Shown in pieces: positions 6,606-59,689 of a DNA stretch of 64,000 nt (within the stretch, counting starts at the first letter, position 1; the number at the start of each line of letters is the position of its first letter). Made by a program: the position numbers and the translations under genes. A model generated the notes under the pieces. It did no database searches and was not told the DNA's origin. It saw only the letters and a program-made list of their open reading frames with translations. The DNA is from Podarcis cretensis (taxonomy: Eukaryota). Where the stretch lies: positions 70,990,001 to 71,054,000 of the forward strand of contig OX638150.1 of NCBI GenBank assembly GCA_951804945.1. The letters are read 5' to 3'.

Positions 6606-7200
6606 AAGAACATAAACATAAGGACATCCCTGCTGGATCAGGCTAGGCCTATCTAGTCCAACATCCTCTCCTTACTCTTGATAGCAATCCCTAGCTAGCA
6701 GGACCAGTGGTCAGGGATGATGGGAAATGTAGTCCAAAAACAACTGGAGACCCAAGTTTGGGAAACCCTGCTCTAGATCATCCATGAACAAGTTAAACTA
6801 GCACATCCCAAAACCATTTCTTGGGGGACTCTACTTTCTACTACCTTCCATTGGTAGAACTTAACAATTATTCCTACTCTCTGCTTCCTTTTTCTTAACC
6901 TCATCCACAAAAGAACCTCTCCTCTTATTCCATGACTTCTAAAGATTACTCAGAAGTCTTTAGTGAGATACTTTGTCAAAAGCTTTTTGAAAGCCCAAAT
7001 ACATAATGTCAAATGGATCACTTCTATCTAAGTGCTTGTTGATACTCTCAAAAAACTCTAATAGGCAAATGAGAGAAAACTTACACTTGCAGAAACCACA
7101 CCGGTTCTGCTTCAGCAAGACTTACTTCTGGTATATGCTTGATTACTGTGTCTAACAATGCTTTTCTTTTTTTTCTGGAACAGATGTTAAGCTAACCTCA
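6606..7200 (-). mobile_element. Decayed CR1 LINE fragments with a half-copy of a hAT MITE at about 6685-6770
   Basis: CR1-like tail at 6606-6665; the minus strand near 6970-7010 reads DIMYLGFQKAFDKVSH (RT motif 'DF-KAFD-V-H'). Confidence 0.55.
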
Positions 7201-11516: not shown

Positions 11517-13112
11517 CTTGCCCTTCTAACTGCAGAAAGCAGCTCACACCCTACCTCCTTTCCATAACAAAGCTCTTCTCCTCATATAATTTACAATTCC
11601 CACCCACTGCTGAACATTCCTAATTAAACTGGGAAAGCCTAATGATTATTGCCATCTGTCCAACAGCAACACTTTCCCCCAACTTTAGATATATGAACTG
11701 AAATGGGAGCCATGTGATGCCCATCTCAAGATGCATTACATTGTTCCTGCAGCTTTGTAATCACACTGGGGTATGTGCTGACAACAGCACGGGCCAGTTA
11801 AGACAAGAACTCAATAGCTGGTGACTGATCACAGCCATGGCAACCACCAAATCGCTAGGATGCACACTCACATCCCTGCCTGAGACTATCATGCTGACAT
11901 ATTAGCTGTGTGTGTTTTTTCCAAGAGGACAATCTGCCAGTGGGACAGAACATCTGTCAAGTGCAACTCAAGATGCAGAGAATGAGGCATGTGGAGGGTG
12001 CCCGTTTCCATAGCCCTTATCCAAGGCTCAAATGAGGACACATGGGACTCTCTTCAATGTTAGCACAAGCAGATCAAAAGAAACTGATTCTCCAAGCAAA
12101 GGCTATGCTTTGTATTGTGGTCTATTGCCTAGTGGAGGTGGAGGTTAGGGTTAGGGTTAGGGTGGAGGTTAGGGAGGAATCAAAACTCCTATTAGGCATG
12201 CATGGCTCAGGCCTTAGGGCATGCCTAAAGCAGCTCTTTGAATCCCAGGTCATTATGTATTTCTAACCAGGGTTCTATAAGTCCACTCATGAGAGGACAT
12301 GCCCCCTCGCCCTATACTACATGCCCAGAACAAAGATCCTATTCCTGCTGGGGTTTTTGCAGGAGGTAGCCGTAGTGAGGTACTACTGGTGCTTCCTGCA
12401 AAAACCCAGCATGACAGAAGCAGTACCCTTCCTTCTTCCAAGGACAACTCAAGGGATGAAAGTTGGAGCAGCTTCTCTTCCTTCTTGCTAGGCTTCTGAA
12501 GGAGGGTGGCAAGTGAGGAGAACCACCCTGAAGGGAATGATCAGTGGCAACCACAAGTTATGGTTGTGTAATAAGCCACACCAAGACTCGGGGATCCCCT
12601 TTGCAAACCCCTACAAGGGAGATCCCCACTTCTCAATTCTGTATGCCTGCTTTAGATGCTATTAAGGCCTTTCAGTATAGTTGTCATGGTCTGGAAACCA
12701 TAGGAATTTATAGTAATACAACTGAGCTCATTGAAAAGGATGGCATGTAATTGTCACCAGCCCAGTTTTCCAGCCACCCCCGGTTAAACAAGCATTCCGA
12801 TAAGTTTAAATGCCTCCCAAGCCACGAAGAGTTTGGTGAGTTACTGACTTCTCACACCCCTGGCCCCAGGTCTCTCCCAGTGTGCCTTCTTGTTCTCCAT
12901 CTACCAGTCTAGATGTCTAGAAGTGGTTAACACATTTGTATAGAAACAAGAGCATCCTTACCGGAATACCACATCTCATTCTGGCACACATACCTCCAGA
13001 ATAGATTCCAAAATAATTATCAAATAAACAGCAATTATCAGACTTCACTGGAAGGAAATCAGTACCATGACAGTTAAACTGGCTTAAAGCAGTTTCACTT
13101 TGTAGTGTAGAT

Positions 13113-13248
13113 CAGGGTTTCCCAAACTTGGGTCTCCAGTTGTTTTTGGACTACAATTCCAATCATCCCCGACCACTGGTTCTGCTAGCTAGGGATGATG
13201 TGAGTTGTAGTCCAAAAACAGCTGGAGACCCAAGTTTGGGAAACCCTG
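13113..13248. mobile_element. Palindromic hAT MITE (related older copies at about 17761-17886, 30301-30435 and 62495-62625)
   Basis: Near-perfect long TIRs CAGGGTTTCCCAAACTTGGGTCTCCAG../..CTGGAGACCCAAGTTTGGGAAACCCTG; imperfect 8-bp TSD GTGTAGAT/ATGTAGAA. Confidence 0.8.
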
Positions 13249-13861
13249 ATGTAGAAGAACCTTTAAAAATTTTTAGTGTAAGTTTGTTAAAGAGCAAAAT
13301 GTATGCTGCAGTTCAGCCTAATACTCTGGGGCTGCTTAAATGATATCCATTTAGCGACTAAATGTTCACAGTGCCCCCTTCTGGTCTGACAGTAAGTCAG
13401 CAACTGGAGTTCTTAAAGGCACCCAGACCTTTTCCATCTAAACCAAAGCAGCTCAGCCTTCCATAGGAAAGTAACTAGTTGGCACTATGCCTGGCATTGC
13501 AGAAGAATGGCTGCCATTTTATAGGTAAGCATCAATGGGACTTCTAACCAAATGTACCATTAGTGCACGGCAGGTACAGGTCTGCTATGAGGATTTCTAC
13601 TGGGGGTATCTACAGCAAGTAAACTGAAGAAAAAGTAATGTAAGTAATCAATTGGTGTGATGCAAGTCTCCCCTCTTCAGATGATTTTTGCAAATCAGCT
13701 GAGGGAGGGATAATTTGCATCAACAGGAGGCTGCTAAACTGGAAGAAGAGGTTTAAAGCCCAGCATCATGCTTTTTTCTTTCTTTTTCCTGTCACTGCTA
13801 AAATTGTTGGGGGCTTGGGGATCAGAAAAAATTGCAGCTGGAGATCAGCCATCCCTGTTAT

Positions 13862-20229: not shown

Positions 20230-20435
20230 TAAGAATGAAGAAAGCTGCCTCACACCAGGTCAGAGGTTTTGTCTTTCTTACCTAGCTTTGCCTACTCTTT
20301 AGTGGTAGTGGCTCTGCAAGGTCTCAGACAGCTTTGCCACCACCTTTGAGCTCCTTTGAATTAGAGCTGCCAGGGACTGAACCTGGAACCTTCTGCATGC
20401 AAAGCACATCCTCTACCACTGAGCTATGGCCCCTC
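20230..20435 (-). mobile_element. Squam3-like tRNA SINE (further copies at about 44760-44925 + and 46890-47010 +)
   Basis: Minus strand begins GAGGGGCCATAGCTCAGTGGTAGAGGATGTGCTTTGCATGCAGAAGGTTCCAGGTTCAGTCCCTGGCAGCTC. Confidence 0.7.
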
Positions 20436-30237: not shown

Positions 30238-30713
30238 CTGAAAAGGAGCAATTCCTAGTCAGTTTGTATCTCAACTGGCATGAAATAATATACCTAAGTG
30301 CAGGGGCAGGGAACCTGTGGTCCAGCAGATGTTGTTGGATTCCAGTGCCCATCAGCCTCAGGCAGCATGGCTAACCATCAGGGATGAGGCAAGTTGTAGT
30401 TCAGCAACATTTGGGGGGCCACAGGTTCCCCGCACCCAGATCAGAGGAAATACTACTGAGGAAATGAAAGAAAAGGAGGTCAACAATTTTGTGCAAAAGC
30501 AGGAAAAATGCAGATGAATTTACTGCTAAAACGCAAGATTTTTCTGTAATAAAAATGAACTTTACCAGGATATATTAACAGAAGCACAACATATAAGACT
30601 TGGGGAGAAATGGTGCAGTTCCATTCAGCATTGGCCAGGCCAGAACTGGAATTTATGGCCCAAGCTTAAGTGAGGCACCTCACTGATATTATGTGTACTA
30701 CTTTCCTTCTCAC

Positions 30714-46700: not shown

Positions 46701-47756
46701 GTTAATGATAATGATAATATAATAATAAATAATAAATGAAGTAGTAGTAGTAGTAGTAGTTTATTATTTATACCACACCCATCTGGCTGGGATCCTTTGC
46801 TTGCTGGTTAATCTACTCAAAAGGAGTGAAGTGCACAGATGCACATGACAGACTGCAGCACTCGCTGTATGTGAGCACTGGAGTTGGAAATGCTGGTGCT
46901 CGGTGGCAGTGCACATGCTTTGCATGCAAAAGATGCCACATTCAATCCCTGGTGTCTCTAGGTAGAGATGGCACAGATTTCTGTCTTTAACGGCTGAGCA
47001 ATGCTGCCTGTCAGTGGGGAGCCTTTTTCATCCCGAGGGTCACATTCCATCTTGGCCAATGCTTTGTGGGCTACATACCAGCAGTGAGCACAGCCAAAGC
47101 AAGAATGGGTGTGGCCCAAGTCGATGCAGCTGCTCAACTCTATTATATGCTCCCCTACATAAATACACATGTGTCTATACTTTCCCATCAGAAAACTATT
47201 TATCCCCCAGCAATCAGGCCTGACCAAAGCTTTTTTGAAACCTAATTGCTAGATAGGGATGCTAGTGATCTTTGCGGAGATGGCCGCTTGAGAGAGGATG
47301 GTTAACTCCTCTTTCCCTGGCTGCACTCTCCCCCACAGCAATTAGGCTTAAAAAGAGCCTATTTGTGCCAATGGAAGACTGCTTTCAAACTTAATTTCAG
47401 GATGGGGTGTGTATTTTTGGTGGGGGGTTGCAATGCATGGGGATTCTTCTGAAAATGCCCCCCAACACCACAATTAGACTTTTGTCTCCTATTGCCATCA
47501 ACAGGAGACTTTTTTCAAGCCTAAAACTTGCAGAAGGATGGGGTTCAGGAAATGCGATGGCATCATAGACCACTGGTTGTCCACTCCTGATGTAAATAAC
47601 TGATCTAAACATTCCAATGGTGTGATCCTCTATTAAGTCAGAGAATTTGTTGTTAAAAATTGAATGGTGAGGAGGAGAAGTTCACTCTCATCTGTAACTT
47701 TGTAAACAGTGGTGGAGGATCCTGAAATACATGAAGTAACACTGGAGGAAACTTAC

Positions 47757-50604: not shown

Positions 50605-50691
50605 TTTACCATAGTTGGTTGTGGTTACATTCCATTTGCGCACTCGATTCCCATCGTAAGCATATGAATCTGGAGTGTCTCCAACTCCTTC
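50605..50691 (-). CDS. RNF123: RNF123 exon 8 (SPRY)
   Basis: [29 protein letters not shown]; 87 nt. Confidence 0.95.
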
Positions 50692-51070
50692 CTATGCAAC
50701 ATGAAAACCAAAAGCAAACCTTTACCAAAGATTACAATTAAGATTTTGCATTCCAGTAATATGCCTTCTTCAACCACTGTCACTGACATACCAAAAAGGA
50801 CTGAGAAATTTGTAGGCTGGGAGAAACAGACCTGAGAGAAACAGTCATATGGGTAACATACAAGGTGTGACCGGACAGTTCGGTGAATGGTCACGGAAAC
50901 CAGACAGCGAAAATATTCAAACATACAGGCCTTCAAAGTAGGCCCCCTCTGATACAATGCACTGTTGACAACCAGTTACAGATAGGTAGCCGTGTTGGTC
51001 TGCCATAGTCAAAACAAAATAAAAAAATTCCTTCCAGTAGCACCTTAAAGACCAACTAAGTTAGTTCTTG

Positions 51071-51108
51071 GTATGAGCTTTCGTGTGCATGCACACTTCT
51101 TCAGATAC
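51071..51108 (-). ncRNA. Minimal type I hammerhead ribozyme motif on the RNF123 sense strand
   Basis: GUAU-CUGAAGA-A-GUGUGC AU GCACAC-GAAA-GC-UC^AUAC. Confidence 0.7.
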
Positions 51109-51118
51109 ACTGAAGTGT

Positions 51119-51901
51119 GGACCACCGGTATTAAATTTACTGCATGTAATGCCTTAAAAGAAAATATTATGAAAATGATCTACCGGTGGTACATGACCCC
51201 AGTCAAGCTTGCAAAAATTTATCATTTGCCTAATAATAAGTGTTGGAAATGTAATGAGACTGAAGGCACTTTCTACCACCTTTGGTGGACCTGCCCAAAG
51301 GTTAAAGCTTTCTGGGAAATGATCTATAATGAAATTAAGAAGGTCCTTAAGTGGACTTTTCCTAAGAAACCAGAGGCTTTCCTCTTGGGCATGGTGGGCC
51401 AAGTGGTGTTAAGGAAGGATAGGACTTTCTTTATGTATGCCACTACAGCAGCAAGAATTCTACTGGCAAAGTATTGGAAGACGCAAGAACTACCTACTCT
51501 GGAAGAATGGCAAACAAAGGTGATTGACTTTATGGGACTGGCCGAGATGACGGGCAGAATCCGGGACCAGGGGAAAGAGACAGTGGAAGAAGACTGGAAG
51601 AATTTCAAAATATATCTTAAAAATAATTGCAAAATTGAGGAATGTTAGGATGTCAGGGGGTAAGAAGTAAAGAATTGCAGCAGTAAACAAAAAAAACTTA
51701 AGAATTTTTTACGAAAGGGAACTAAGACAATGGACTTAAGGGTTGCTAAAGAATTATTAAACAAGGATGCAGGGATGGGGAGGTATGGGGAAGTCAAAGA
51801 AAGAAGGGTATGAACCGATGAGCATGAAGTTATACTGTTTTACATTGTTCTTTATTACATGTGTGGAAAATTAATAAAAATTATTATTAAAAAAAAAAAA
51901 A
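51119..51901 (+). mobile_element. L1-clade LINE, 5'-truncated, with intact ORF2 C-terminus, 3'UTR and poly(A)
   Basis: CWKCNETEGTFYHLWWTC (CCHC zinc knuckle), stop at 51646-8, AATAAA at 51873, A-tail 51889-51901, 17-bp TSD CAGATACACTGAAGTGT at 51102-51118 and 51902-51918. Confidence 0.9.
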
Positions 51902-51927
51902 CAGATACACTGAAGTGTATCTGAAGT

Positions 51928-51965
51928 GTATCTGAAGAAGTGTGCATGCACACGAAAGCTCATAC
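51928..51965 (+). ncRNA. Minimal type I hammerhead ribozyme motif, mirror copy
   Basis: Identical motif on the plus strand; predicted cleavage after C51961. Confidence 0.7.
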
Positions 51966-53037
51966 CAAGAACTAACTTAGTTGGTCTTTAAGGTGCTACT
52001 GGAAGGAATTTTTTTATTTTGTTTTGACTGTTGACAACACTCGTAGAACTGTTGGAAACTTCTGGAGAAGTCCTCTTTTCATACTGCTTTTAGTTCCCTC
52101 GTCACAGCAGCTTGGATGTGTGAAATGTTGGAAAATCTGTGCCCTTTCAGTGCAGATTTCAGTTTTGGAAAAAGAAAGAAATCCGGTGGGGCCAGATTAG
52201 GAAAATATAGAAGGTAGGACAGCTCAGTAACCTCAGTAATGATTTCATGTGGAATATGCAATTCTTCCGCCATCATTCGGATGGAGAAACGCCGATCCCA
52301 CATCAATAACTCATGAACTGTCAACATTTGCTGCTGCTTTGCTCGTCAACGGTCTGCCAGATTGCGGGTCTTCTTCAATAGTTTGCCGCCCTTCATGGAA
52401 ATGCTTAAACCACTCATACACTGTCTTTCGAGTTACAGCTTCATCTCTGTAGACAATTGTGGGCATTTTGTGGGTTTCTGATGTTAATTTACCCAATTTG
52501 AAACAGAATTTCATATTGACTCTCTGCTCCATTTTCAATCACATTGCACTGCTACTAAACGCTACCGCATCAACATAGGCCTGTCAACAAATGCCGAGAT
52601 ATGTGCACATATGTTAGCTGAGATACGGACCAACGTCTCCCACGTGTCTCTGTGAATCCGGCAGTTCCTATTCTCGCATACAGGAGTGATTCACCCTACT
52701 TTCCAGTCACACCTTGTAATATACCAAGCATCCATGCCCATTTCTGGTAAGTATATACAGTAGTAATTAGGTCCACTACTATATCCAACTTAAGTAGAAC
52801 ACGAGTTATGAAAAGGAATTACAGGTTCCCTATTCCAAAAAACCAGATTATATAGATATTGTCAAGATTTCAGTTCCCATCAGACCTAGCTAACATGGGA
52901 TGATGGGAATAGTAGTCTAACAAGGGGCCACAGGTAATTTCTGGGATTTCCAGCCTTGGAACTTCAGGTAAAGAGTGATGTCTAAATGTAAATACAATAA
53001 GTAAGAAATTAAATAAATAAATATGCTCTTGCATTAC

Positions 53038-53123
53038 CTCTTGATTGAATCGGCAATTGAGAGTGCACCAACCAATTTGCATAAGGCCTTGGGATGAAAT
53101 CAGCACCTCATAGATCCATTTTC
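53038..53123 (-). CDS. RNF123: RNF123 exon 7 (SPRY)
   Basis: [29 protein letters not shown]; 86 nt. Confidence 0.95.
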
Positions 53124-56175: not shown

Positions 56176-56374
56176 CTGAAATGAAAGTTGAAGGAATGAC
56201 AATGAGAAATATTTGTGAAGCAACGACATAAGAGGTAGAGTAATTGAGATGAGGCAACTCTGTGTTCAGTTTTATGGCAAAAGAAAGAGACACAAGCATC
56301 AATTAGGATATTATATGGTTATTTTTCTTCTCCTGAACACAGAGGAAGTTCCCCAAAGATAGAGACATTTCATA

Positions 56375-56543
56375 CATCCAAGCACAGTTCTCCATAGAAT
56401 CCCATGTGTGGAGGGTAAGTGACATGTGTCTTTTGACAATGACACATATTAAATAGAAAAAATACTGAATATGTGTTATCGTTGAAAGACCCATGTCACC
56501 TACCCTCCACACATGGGCCTCTATGGAGAACTGTGCTTGGATG
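56375..56543. repeat. Long imperfect palindrome (about 75-bp arms), probably MITE-derived
   Basis: CATCCAAGCACAGTTCTCCATAGA..CCCATGTGTGGAGGGTA.GTGACATG is mirrored by CATGTCAC.TACCCTCCACACATGGG..TCTATGGAGAACTGTGCTTGGATG. Confidence 0.9.
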
Positions 56544-57206
56544 AATCAAACTGTTTCAATGAATACTGCTCTGAACAGCAAACAGGCTGATATACTGCAA
56601 ACCTTCTGTGTAGTTGGCCATTTCTTTTCCCAAAATAGATATTATGTTTATCTGATAAAACTTAATAAAAATACATTTTTTAAGAAAAAAAGACCACCAA
56701 GAAGGGAACTAGGTTTAGGTGGAAAGTCCCCATAATATGCTATTCTGCTTTCTCTTAAGGCAACTGCAAAATGAGCAGACACTAGAGGCATCGGCCCCGG
56801 TGCAATGTCATGACGTCACACATGCAAGGTCACAAGGAGCCAGGGAATGGAGCCAAACATGGTGGCAGCACAGCCTCTGTCCTCCCCTTCCCTCTGCCAT
56901 GCAAGGTAAAGATGGGGGAAGCCGCTCCCAGCTAGTGGCGGTAGCAGCAGCAGCAACCAATGACCACTGAGCTATGCCATGCTTGGCTCCAGTATAGGCT
57001 GCTTCTCCCGTCCCTTCCCTGTACGGCAGGAGGAGGAGGAGGAGCCACCACAGGCCACTGAAGCTGCACTGCACCTGGCTCTATGTTCAACCTCCTCCTG
57101 CTGCTGAATATTGGGGGCCCGGCCCCCTCAAAAAACAAACAATGGGGGCACAAAGTCGCTCGGCCCCTTGGAGCTGACACTTATGGCAGACATTGTATCT
57201 ATTTAC

Positions 57207-59060: not shown

Positions 59061-59518
59061 CTATGAGAATGAGTAAAAAGCCAAGTCAGCAAGGAACAAC
59101 CAGGTATTACCTCCAATATACCAATTTTACTTCTACAAGTGAGGCAAGATGAACTTAGGCAGCCCTGTTTCATTTATTTATTTCATTTACAGCCTGTCTT
59201 TCTTCCATAGAACTCAAAGCATTGCATGAGGTTCCCAGGAGGCCGCCCATCCAGACACACTCAGAGCTAGCTTCCGTAAGGCAGCTAAATCATATGACTT
59301 CAGCCTATGCTGTTGCCTGTATAGCTAATACTATATCATAGTACTTAATCAGCAAAAATATGGAGATTAATAAATCAGTTTTGATAAGATCATCTCATAA
59401 ATCACTTAAAATGTTTACTTGAAAGATGACCCCAGTGAATTCAGTGAGACTTACTCCCAAGTGTACACAGAATTTCAGCCAATGCCGCTAAGGCTATATC
59501 TCTATCAAATGTTTTTCC

Positions 59519-59689
59519 TTAGAGACCAACTAAGTTTGTTCTTGGTATAAGCTTTCGTGTGCATGCACACTTCTTGCACATGAAAGCTTATACCAAGAAC
59601 AAACTTAGTTGGTCTCTAAGATGCTACTGGACATTTTTTTTATTTTTATATATATTTTGACTGCGTCAGACCAACACGGCTACCTACCT
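59519..59689. mobile_element. Second Penelope-like inverted remnant
   Basis: Same family as 50973-52026 (AGACCAACTAAGTT.GTTCTTGGTAT.AGCTTTCGTGTGCATGCACAC; CAGACCAACACGGCTACCTA); 12-bp TSD AAATGTTTTTCC at 59507-59518 and 59690-59701. Confidence 0.8.

What the first reader, a model, noticed from the sequence alone, without database searches (positions are those of the whole stretch)
51007..52029. Hammerhead ribozyme motif in the RNF123 pre-mRNA paired with its own perfect antisense copy
Seen: both 104-bp arms contain the core CUGAAGA..GAAA, stem II GUGUGC/GCACAC, a 4-bp stem I GUAU/AUAC and a palindromic AGCU in place of stem III. Known: Penelope-like elements carry such minimal type I hammerheads, proposed to cleave as dimers. 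Inference: on the minus strand the antisense arm is transcribed first, then about 815 nt of spacer, then the ribozyme arm. The 104-bp duplex would sequester the ribozyme and protect the host pre-mRNA while creating an ADAR/dsRNA substrate. The L1 insertion turned a tight hairpin into a long-loop stem and may have changed this competition.
Basis: partly seen in the sequence, partly recalled or inferred. Interest (0 to 1): 0.7.

Follow-up and report, generated by a model that had tools for sequence, protein, structure and literature searches.

The report
Mirror-image Penelope stub in lizard intron
An intron of a lizard RNF123 gene holds two back-to-back ends of a common Penelope-type jumping gene, split by a LINE-1 fragment that likely jumped in later; the self-cutting RNA motif in them is real but predicted to be inactive here, and the same mirror layout recurs at an estimated thousands of other places in this genome, so it is ordinary.

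Summary
Observation confirmed: a perfect 105-bp inverted repeat, each arm with a minimal hammerhead, in a minus-strand RNF123 intron. It is a nested insertion: mariner remnant > short head-to-head Penelope-like (PLE, Neptune-type) insertion with 12-bp TSD and 34-37-nt tail > young L1 3' fragment with its own 17-bp TSD. The family is abundant (6,883 exact hammerhead 32-mers). In a consecutive sample, 45 of 70 loci carry an inverted arm and 20 of 70 cover the whole hammerhead with both arms. Head-to-head geometry puts the antisense arm first on either strand, so this is not special to RNF123. The duplex is predicted, but protection is probably unnecessary: the motif lacks stem III, misfolds locally without the antisense arm, and published PLE hammerheads need a dimer or the PLE protein. 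L1 barely changes the energetics (68 to 60 kcal/mol) and is a one-off (1 of 855 L1 ends). ADAR editing is plausible (lizard Penelope is reported heavily edited) but untested. Side result: copy ends pile at the predicted start site, not the cleavage site. The scan saw this layout before on other DNA.

The parts
53038..53123 (-). RNF123 coding exon upstream of the host intron (aa 134-162 of P0003)
50605..50691 (-). RNF123 coding exon downstream of the host intron (aa 163-191 of P0003)
50852..52725 (-). Decayed mariner DNA transposon that hosts the insertion; inverted ends 50852-50888 and 52689-52725 (81% alike); transposase remnant with Mos1 HTH
   Evidence: HTH_48, E 1.5e-08
50961..50972 (.). 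Left copy of the 12-bp target-site duplication of the PLE insertion
   Evidence: 12 bp is the family mode, 20 of 73 arm pairings
50973..51114 (-). Main PLE copy, family positions +1..+142: predicted start site, hammerhead, 5' leader, first 11 codons of the PLE ORF (ATG at 51006)
50973..51006 (-). PLE 'tail', present on this arm only
   Evidence: PMC11167929, PMC8557442
51071..51108 (-). Minimal type I hammerhead motif, sense to the RNF123 pre-mRNA; predicted cut between 51075 and 51074
51007..51111 (.). Left arm of the perfect 105-nt inverted repeat
51102..51118 (.). Left copy of the 17-bp L1 target-site duplication; contains the PLE inversion junction
51119..51901 (+). 5'-truncated young L1 (end of ORF2, 3' UTR, poly-A); 99.7% identical to its nearest copies; antisense to RNF123
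51902..51918 (.). Right copy of the 17-bp L1 target-site duplication
51925..52029 (+). Inverted PLE arm, family positions +4..+105/108, no tail; antisense in the RNF123 pre-mRNA and transcribed first
51928..51965 (+). Second hammerhead motif, on the strand opposite to RNF123
52027..52038 (.). Right copy of the 12-bp PLE target-site duplication (3 nt shared with the arm end)

Best explanation
This is a short head-to-head insertion of a Neptune-type Penelope-like retrotransposon inside a mariner remnant in an RNF123 intron, into whose centre a young L1 fragment likely inserted later; its hammerhead is predicted to be inactive in the pre-mRNA and likely has no role for the host gene. Inferred origin: the PLE protein cut both DNA strands and copied uncleaved PLE RNA twice, once from each of its two internal start sites (about +141 and +105), both copies running out near the RNA's 5' end (about +4); the two were joined head to head, leaving a 12-bp duplication and a one-sided tail. 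Predicted consequence: in the pre-mRNA the antisense arm is made first and pairs with the second arm as a 105-bp duplex that is spliced out with the intron and is probably A-to-I edited, like other lizard Penelope repeats.
For: Shown: both TSDs and the nesting; parent element with RT and GIY-YIG domains and a CX4CxxC linker (sequence; PMC8557442); 6,883 exact hammerhead 32-mers and 10,312 exact downstream 26-mers, 0 for reversed controls. Of 70 consecutive loci, 45 have an inverted arm and 20 cover the whole hammerhead on both arms; 26 of 28 exact-match pairs have one long and one short 3' end. 37 of 72 5' ends that fall in -30..+54 lie at +1..+11, 2 at +39..+43 around the cut site (4.3 expected if uniform); a TATA box lies at -27. 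L1 at this apex is 1 of 855 matching L1 3' ends; its TSD length and non-A target fit 7 other L1 copies with a TSD found (14-21 bp). Fold: hammerhead-like state costs 6.0 kcal/mol without the antisense arm, 60.0 with it, 68.2 before L1. Literature: single min-HHR shows no cleavage (PMC4209133); the anole PLE hammerhead cuts only with the PLE protein, uncleaved RNA is the main template, both strands are cut and extended, two RT start sites define the tail (PMC11167929); Penelope is massively edited in lizard (PMC5625713).
Against: No RNA data were obtained, so inactivity, duplex formation and editing are predictions from equilibrium folding. A starting-at-+4 RNA reaches the hammerhead-like fold fairly easily in one window (1.3 kcal/mol, P 0.12) though not in two others (3.5 and 5.5 kcal/mol), so the motif is not intrinsically dead. 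The biochemistry cited is from a Poseidon-clade element whose ORF starts inside the hammerhead; this one is Neptune-type with the ORF about 65 nt further down. The start site is inferred from TATA/Inr spacing and copy ends only. 5' ends at +14..+35 (17 of 100) are blurred by the stem II palindrome. The sample is the first 7.3 Mb of one contig and holds only exact-match (young) copies.
Confidence: 0.85

Rival explanations
1. The antisense arm really protects host pre-mRNAs: unpaired sense-strand PLE hammerheads can cut nascent RNA (as dimers in trans or helped by PLE protein), so paired insertions are tolerated in introns and unpaired ones are selected against; this locus is one such tolerated case.
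For: The arm covers the whole motif and the duplex is predicted (-187.5 kcal/mol). All core nucleotides are intact and the family is young with open ORFs, so partner RNA and protein may exist in the germ line.
Against: 50 of 70 sampled loci lack full antisense cover. Local misfolding already disfavours the active fold. Copy 5' ends do not pile at the cut site. Published activity is low or protein-dependent. The strand-bias test could not be run.
Confidence: 0.08
2. The L1 piece was captured during the PLE insertion itself (template jump onto L1 RNA or DNA), not inserted later.
For: Unrelated sequence between pLTRs is described (PMC3846280 passage). Read on the minus strand, the short arm continues into poly-T and antisense L1, as a cDNA template jump would. 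PLE and L1 are both very young.
Against: The L1 has its own perfect 17-bp duplication that copies the finished inversion junction on both sides; 17 bp is in the L1 range (14-21), above the PLE mode of 12. No L1 match was found in non-PLE spacers of the other sampled pairs; two held what look like ordinary later insertions.
Confidence: 0.1
3. The inverted arm arose by fold-back self-priming at a palindrome, or RT stalling at the hammerhead, not by a second priming event running to the RNA 5' end.
For: Self-priming on an antisense template was proposed from palindromic junctions (PMC3846280 passage). Junctions here are rich in short palindromes and duplications, and a 5-bp hairpin lies at +1..+15.
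Against: The two arms end at the two fixed 3' sites in 26 of 28 pairs and lone copies end at either site, as expected if each site is an independent start; both-strand extension from two sites is shown in vitro for a related element.
Confidence: 0.25

Closest known systems
EN+ PLE insertions with inverted 5'-truncated pLTR, one-sided tail and TSD (Pen2a_Av of Adineta vaga, PMC3846280; general scheme in PMC8557442)
   Same: Head-to-head inverted pLTR, 30-40-nt tail on one end, short TSD, TATA and Inr-like motif, pLTR plus tail reaching into the first codons of the ORF.
   Different: Both arms are stubs of 105-142 nt with no ORF body and no TATA box; a later L1 splits the junction.
Minimal hammerheads of metazoan PLEs (Cervera and De la Pena 2014, PMC4209133)
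   Same: Type I, core boxes, extra nucleotide before stem II, G-C first pair of stem II, 4-bp stem I, palindromic stem III region; opposite-strand pairs 100-700 bp apart were already reported there.
   Different: Stem II is 5 bp (6 with a 2-nt loop), shorter than the 7-8 bp given for schistosome motifs; activity not tested here.
PAc, Poseidon PLE of Anolis carolinensis (Frangieh et al. 2024, PMC11167929)
   Same: Lizard PLE with pLTR hammerhead, two RT start sites bounding the tail, uncleaved RNA as template.
   Different: This family has the CX2-5CxxC linker that Poseidon lacks; its ORF starts at +109, after the hammerhead, not at stem II.
Inverted-repeat ADAR substrates: palindromic Harbinger in Xenopus and Penelope in lizard (Porath et al. 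2017, PMC5625713); inverted Alu pairs (recalled)
   Same: Long near-perfect duplex in an intron from a repeat.
   Different: Duplex comes from one retrotransposition event; editing of this locus is not shown.

Membership tests
EN+ Penelope-like element | Parent ORF with RT and C-terminal GIY-YIG endonuclease | tested here: met
   L149 ORF: RVT_1 E 2.6e-12, GIY-YIG E 2.7e-05; its pLTR matches the arm at 93-94%
EN+ Penelope-like element | Inverted 5'-truncated pLTR copy, head to head | tested here: met
EN+ Penelope-like element | 30-40-nt tail on one end only | tested here: met
   34-37 nt here; 26 of 28 pairs long+short
EN+ Penelope-like element | Short TSD | tested here: met
   12 bp; family mode 12
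Neptune/Nematis-type PLE | CX2-5CxxC linker before GIY-YIG | tested here: met
   CX4CxxC in the L067 and L149 translations; definition from PMC8557442
Neptune clade (versus Nematis) | RT phylogenetic placement | not tested
   No tree built; homologs carry no clade names
PLE minimal hammerhead | CUGANGA and GAAA boxes, NUH triplet, stems I and II, palindromic stem III region | tested here: met
   descriptor features from PMC4209133
Rfam hammerhead families | Match to a covariance model | tested here: not met
   No hammerhead hit at gathering score or E up to 10
Active ribozyme | Self-cleavage as monomer or dimer | not testable with these tools
   Folding only: the two-copy minimum-energy state swaps stem II and does not form stem III
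L1 insertion by target-primed reverse transcription | 5' truncation, poly-A end, own TSD, RT-bearing parent | tested here: met
   the clade label L1 rests on the recalled C-terminal CCHC motif and a weak zf-RVT hit (E 0.05)
ADAR-edited dsRNA | A-to-I changes in RNA reads over the arms | not testable with these tools
   No raw RNA reads were available; multi-copy sequence

The most novel reading that the evidence does not exclude
Lizard Neptune-type PLEs write a perfect RNA hairpin at most insertions because each of two RT start sites primes one arm that runs to the RNA's 5' end; this built-in mirror would mute the hammerhead on whichever strand is transcribed, would explain why Penelope is the heavily A-to-I edited LINE-class repeat in lizard, and may be favoured by selection in introns over unpaired sense copies.
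Probability: 0.15. Interest if true: 0.55.

Novelty: new member of a known kind. Interest (0 to 1): 0.2.

Why it matters
The locus itself matters little: it is one of an estimated 2,000 or more like it. The family-level numbers are of modest use: young, near-identical copies map the two RT start sites, the probable RNA 5' end and the absence of cleaved templates for a Neptune-type PLE, which bears on the open question of how PLEs make inverted ends and what their hammerhead is for. If paired copies were favoured in introns, it would show a host cost of PLE ribozymes and a self-muting geometry.

Tried and rejected
Rfam scans: no hammerhead hit. L1 targeting of PLE hairpin apexes: rejected; 1 match (this locus) for one pattern, 2 for the other (this locus plus one whose sequence before the motif does not resemble the PLE; not examined further), among 855 L1 3' ends; only this L1 subfamily and two junction patterns were tested. 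Unusual L1 target site: rejected, other copies are equally relaxed (7 of 8 examined gave a TSD). Sequencing runs: no RNA holder listed. Laying Logan contigs of 4 of 24 listed runs to test for an empty allele was inconclusive: no listed piece bridges either junction, a mariner contig runs across the insertion point in three runs but other mariner copies can explain it, and the lists are cut. The pile at -88 (25 ends) is an artefact of an indel against the reference under ungapped extension; spreads these ends. Luense et al. (dimer cleavage) is not held; it is cited only through PMC6765202. The 2026 retrozyme preprint had no passage on inverted arms or lizards. Look-up of earlier findings by sequence found nothing.

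Full report
Observation. The inverted repeat is real: 51007-51111 and 51925-52029, 105 nt, 100% complementary, 813 nt apart. A descriptor scan of both strands of the window finds two hammerhead-like motifs, one per arm; the minus-strand cut site would be 51075/51074. Rfam does not detect them and the motif folds no better than shuffles. The host gene is RNF123 on the minus strand (exon map against a lacertid RNF123); the element is in the intron between 53038 and 50691.

Anatomy. Three nested layers. (1) A decayed mariner, 50852-52725, with 37-nt inverted ends and a Mos1-type HTH remnant. (2) A PLE insertion, 50973-52026, flanked by a 12-bp duplication. (3) A 5'-truncated L1, 51119-51901, with poly-A and a 17-bp duplication, 99.7% identical to its nearest copies, whose longer copies encode RT. 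The L1 duplication copies the PLE inversion junction on both sides, so the hairpin most likely existed first (inference).

The family. The arm matches five other loci at 100% over 142-143 nt among the 40 candidates scored. Exact counts: 6,883 for the hammerhead 32-mer and 10,312 for a downstream 26-mer, with 0 for reversed controls. Longer copies run into an ORF with RT and GIY-YIG domains and a CX4CxxC linker, which by PMC8557442 (passages) marks Neptune/Nematis, not Poseidon. The arm is the pLTR end: TATA box at -27, Inr-like motif at +1..+7 (label recalled), hammerhead +7..+44, ATG at +109.

Is the pairing special? No. I took the first 100 listed 26-mer matches (contig 1, first 7.3 Mb), which fall in 70 loci. 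45 of 70 have a head-to-head inverted PLE piece, 20 of 70 have both arms spanning the whole hammerhead, 1 is tail-to-tail. Scaled by ratio this is about 7,000 loci, 4,600 with an inverted arm and 2,000 like this one (extrapolation; young exact copies only). A second, older head-to-head copy sits in another RNF123 intron. The layout is described in PMC8557442 (passages) and PMC3846280 (passages); opposite-strand pairs of minimal hammerheads in PMC4209133 (parts 1-2 of 4 read).

How it arose. 3' ends cluster at about +105 and +141; 26 of 28 exact-match pairs have one of each (one exception appears to be two separate elements). This matches the two RT start sites that bound the tail in the anole PLE, which cuts and extends both strands (PMC11167929, parts 1-2 of 4 read). 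5' ends: of 100, 28 run past -31, and 37 of the 72 within -30..+54 lie at +1..+11; 2 lie at +39..+43, against 4.3 expected if uniform. I infer that short copies are run-off cDNAs from uncleaved RNA that begins at about +4, 30 nt after the TATA box. Here the arms span +1..+142 and +4..+105/108. Fold-back at palindromes remains a rival.

What it does in the pre-mRNA. The whole stretch folds with the arms fully paired in both minimum-energy and centroid structures. The hammerhead-like state costs 60.0 kcal/mol with L1 and 68.2 without it: L1 does not change the outcome at equilibrium; kinetics were not modelled. Without the antisense arm it still costs 6.0 kcal/mol, likely because the bases just upstream pair with the core (hairpin seen). 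Against this, an RNA starting at +4 gives 1.3, 3.5 or 5.5 kcal/mol depending on the 3' end or copy used. Published PLE minimal hammerheads do not cut as monomers and cut weakly as dimers (review PMC6765202 passages), and the anole one needs the PLE protein. The antisense arm cannot act as a dimer partner. The arms lack the TATA box, so the stub has no evident promoter. Protection is therefore probably idle. Editing is plausible: Penelope is reported as the one further massively edited LINE-class repeat in lizard, over 40,000 sites (PMC5625713, passages), but no RNA evidence for this locus was obtained.

The L1. It is a one-off: 1 of 855 matching L1 3' ends for the apex pattern. Its 17-bp duplication and non-A target are within the range of other copies. 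Of 73 arm pairings examined in stored loci, 9 listed non-PLE stretches of 25 nt or more; none matched this L1; two loci held what look like SINE insertions (label recalled), others were local duplications or separate elements.

Novelty. New member of a known kind. Seven searches of the open library listed no paper that ties lizard Penelope editing to built-in inverted arms or tests orientation bias of PLE hammerheads in introns; I saw only listings and passages, and no supplements (those of PMC5625713 and PMC11167929 may bear on this). Earlier notes of this scan report the same layout in sharks, fish and octopus, and a lone copy in this genome.

Verdict. Real, ordinary, interest 0.2.

Noticed in passing
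window 59517-59689: Second, older head-to-head copy of the same PLE family in the RNF123 intron between the first two coding exons; neither arm keeps the full hammerhead core.
   Followed up: partly
window 51000-51030, minus strand: The PLE leader carries a T-rich tract followed by CAG in sense to RNF123, a candidate cryptic 3' splice site (73-nt pseudo-exon to 50927 in a crude scan); the tract lies inside the predicted duplex, which could mask it.
   Followed up: no
L149 (G000:C9:17752500-17759500): Large inverted PLE structure: 2,214-bp arms at 100% identity with an uninterrupted RT-EN frame of 859 aa and a second open frame starting at the pLTR ATG; the family looks recently active.
   Followed up: partly
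P0139, P0140, P0144, P0149: Annotated Zootoca vivipara proteins join a CARD domain (PF00619) to the C-terminal part of this PLE family (81-87% identity); possible exonisation or gene-model artefact. Turtle PLE proteins are 61-68% identical over the same region.
   Followed up: no
L031-L060: This lizard L1 subfamily shows relaxed target choice: of 7 other copies with a TSD found, 5 duplications begin with a base other than A.
   Followed up: partly
window 20362-20433, minus strand: tRNA-like match (Rfam 37.7 bits), 76% alike to an inverted copy at 46898-46960; probably heads of a tRNA-derived SINE.
   Followed up: no
window 56368-56550; 13108-13253 and 6687-6775; 30303-30436: Other short inverted-repeat elements in RNF123 introns (62-89-nt arms at 86-94%; 42 nt at 76%), so the pre-mRNA has several further predicted duplexes.
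   Followed up: no
window 51083-51096, minus strand: Stem II is a perfect 14-nt palindrome; two copies are predicted to pair through it (-30.6 kcal/mol) instead of through stem III, and many inversion junctions map to it.
   Followed up: partly
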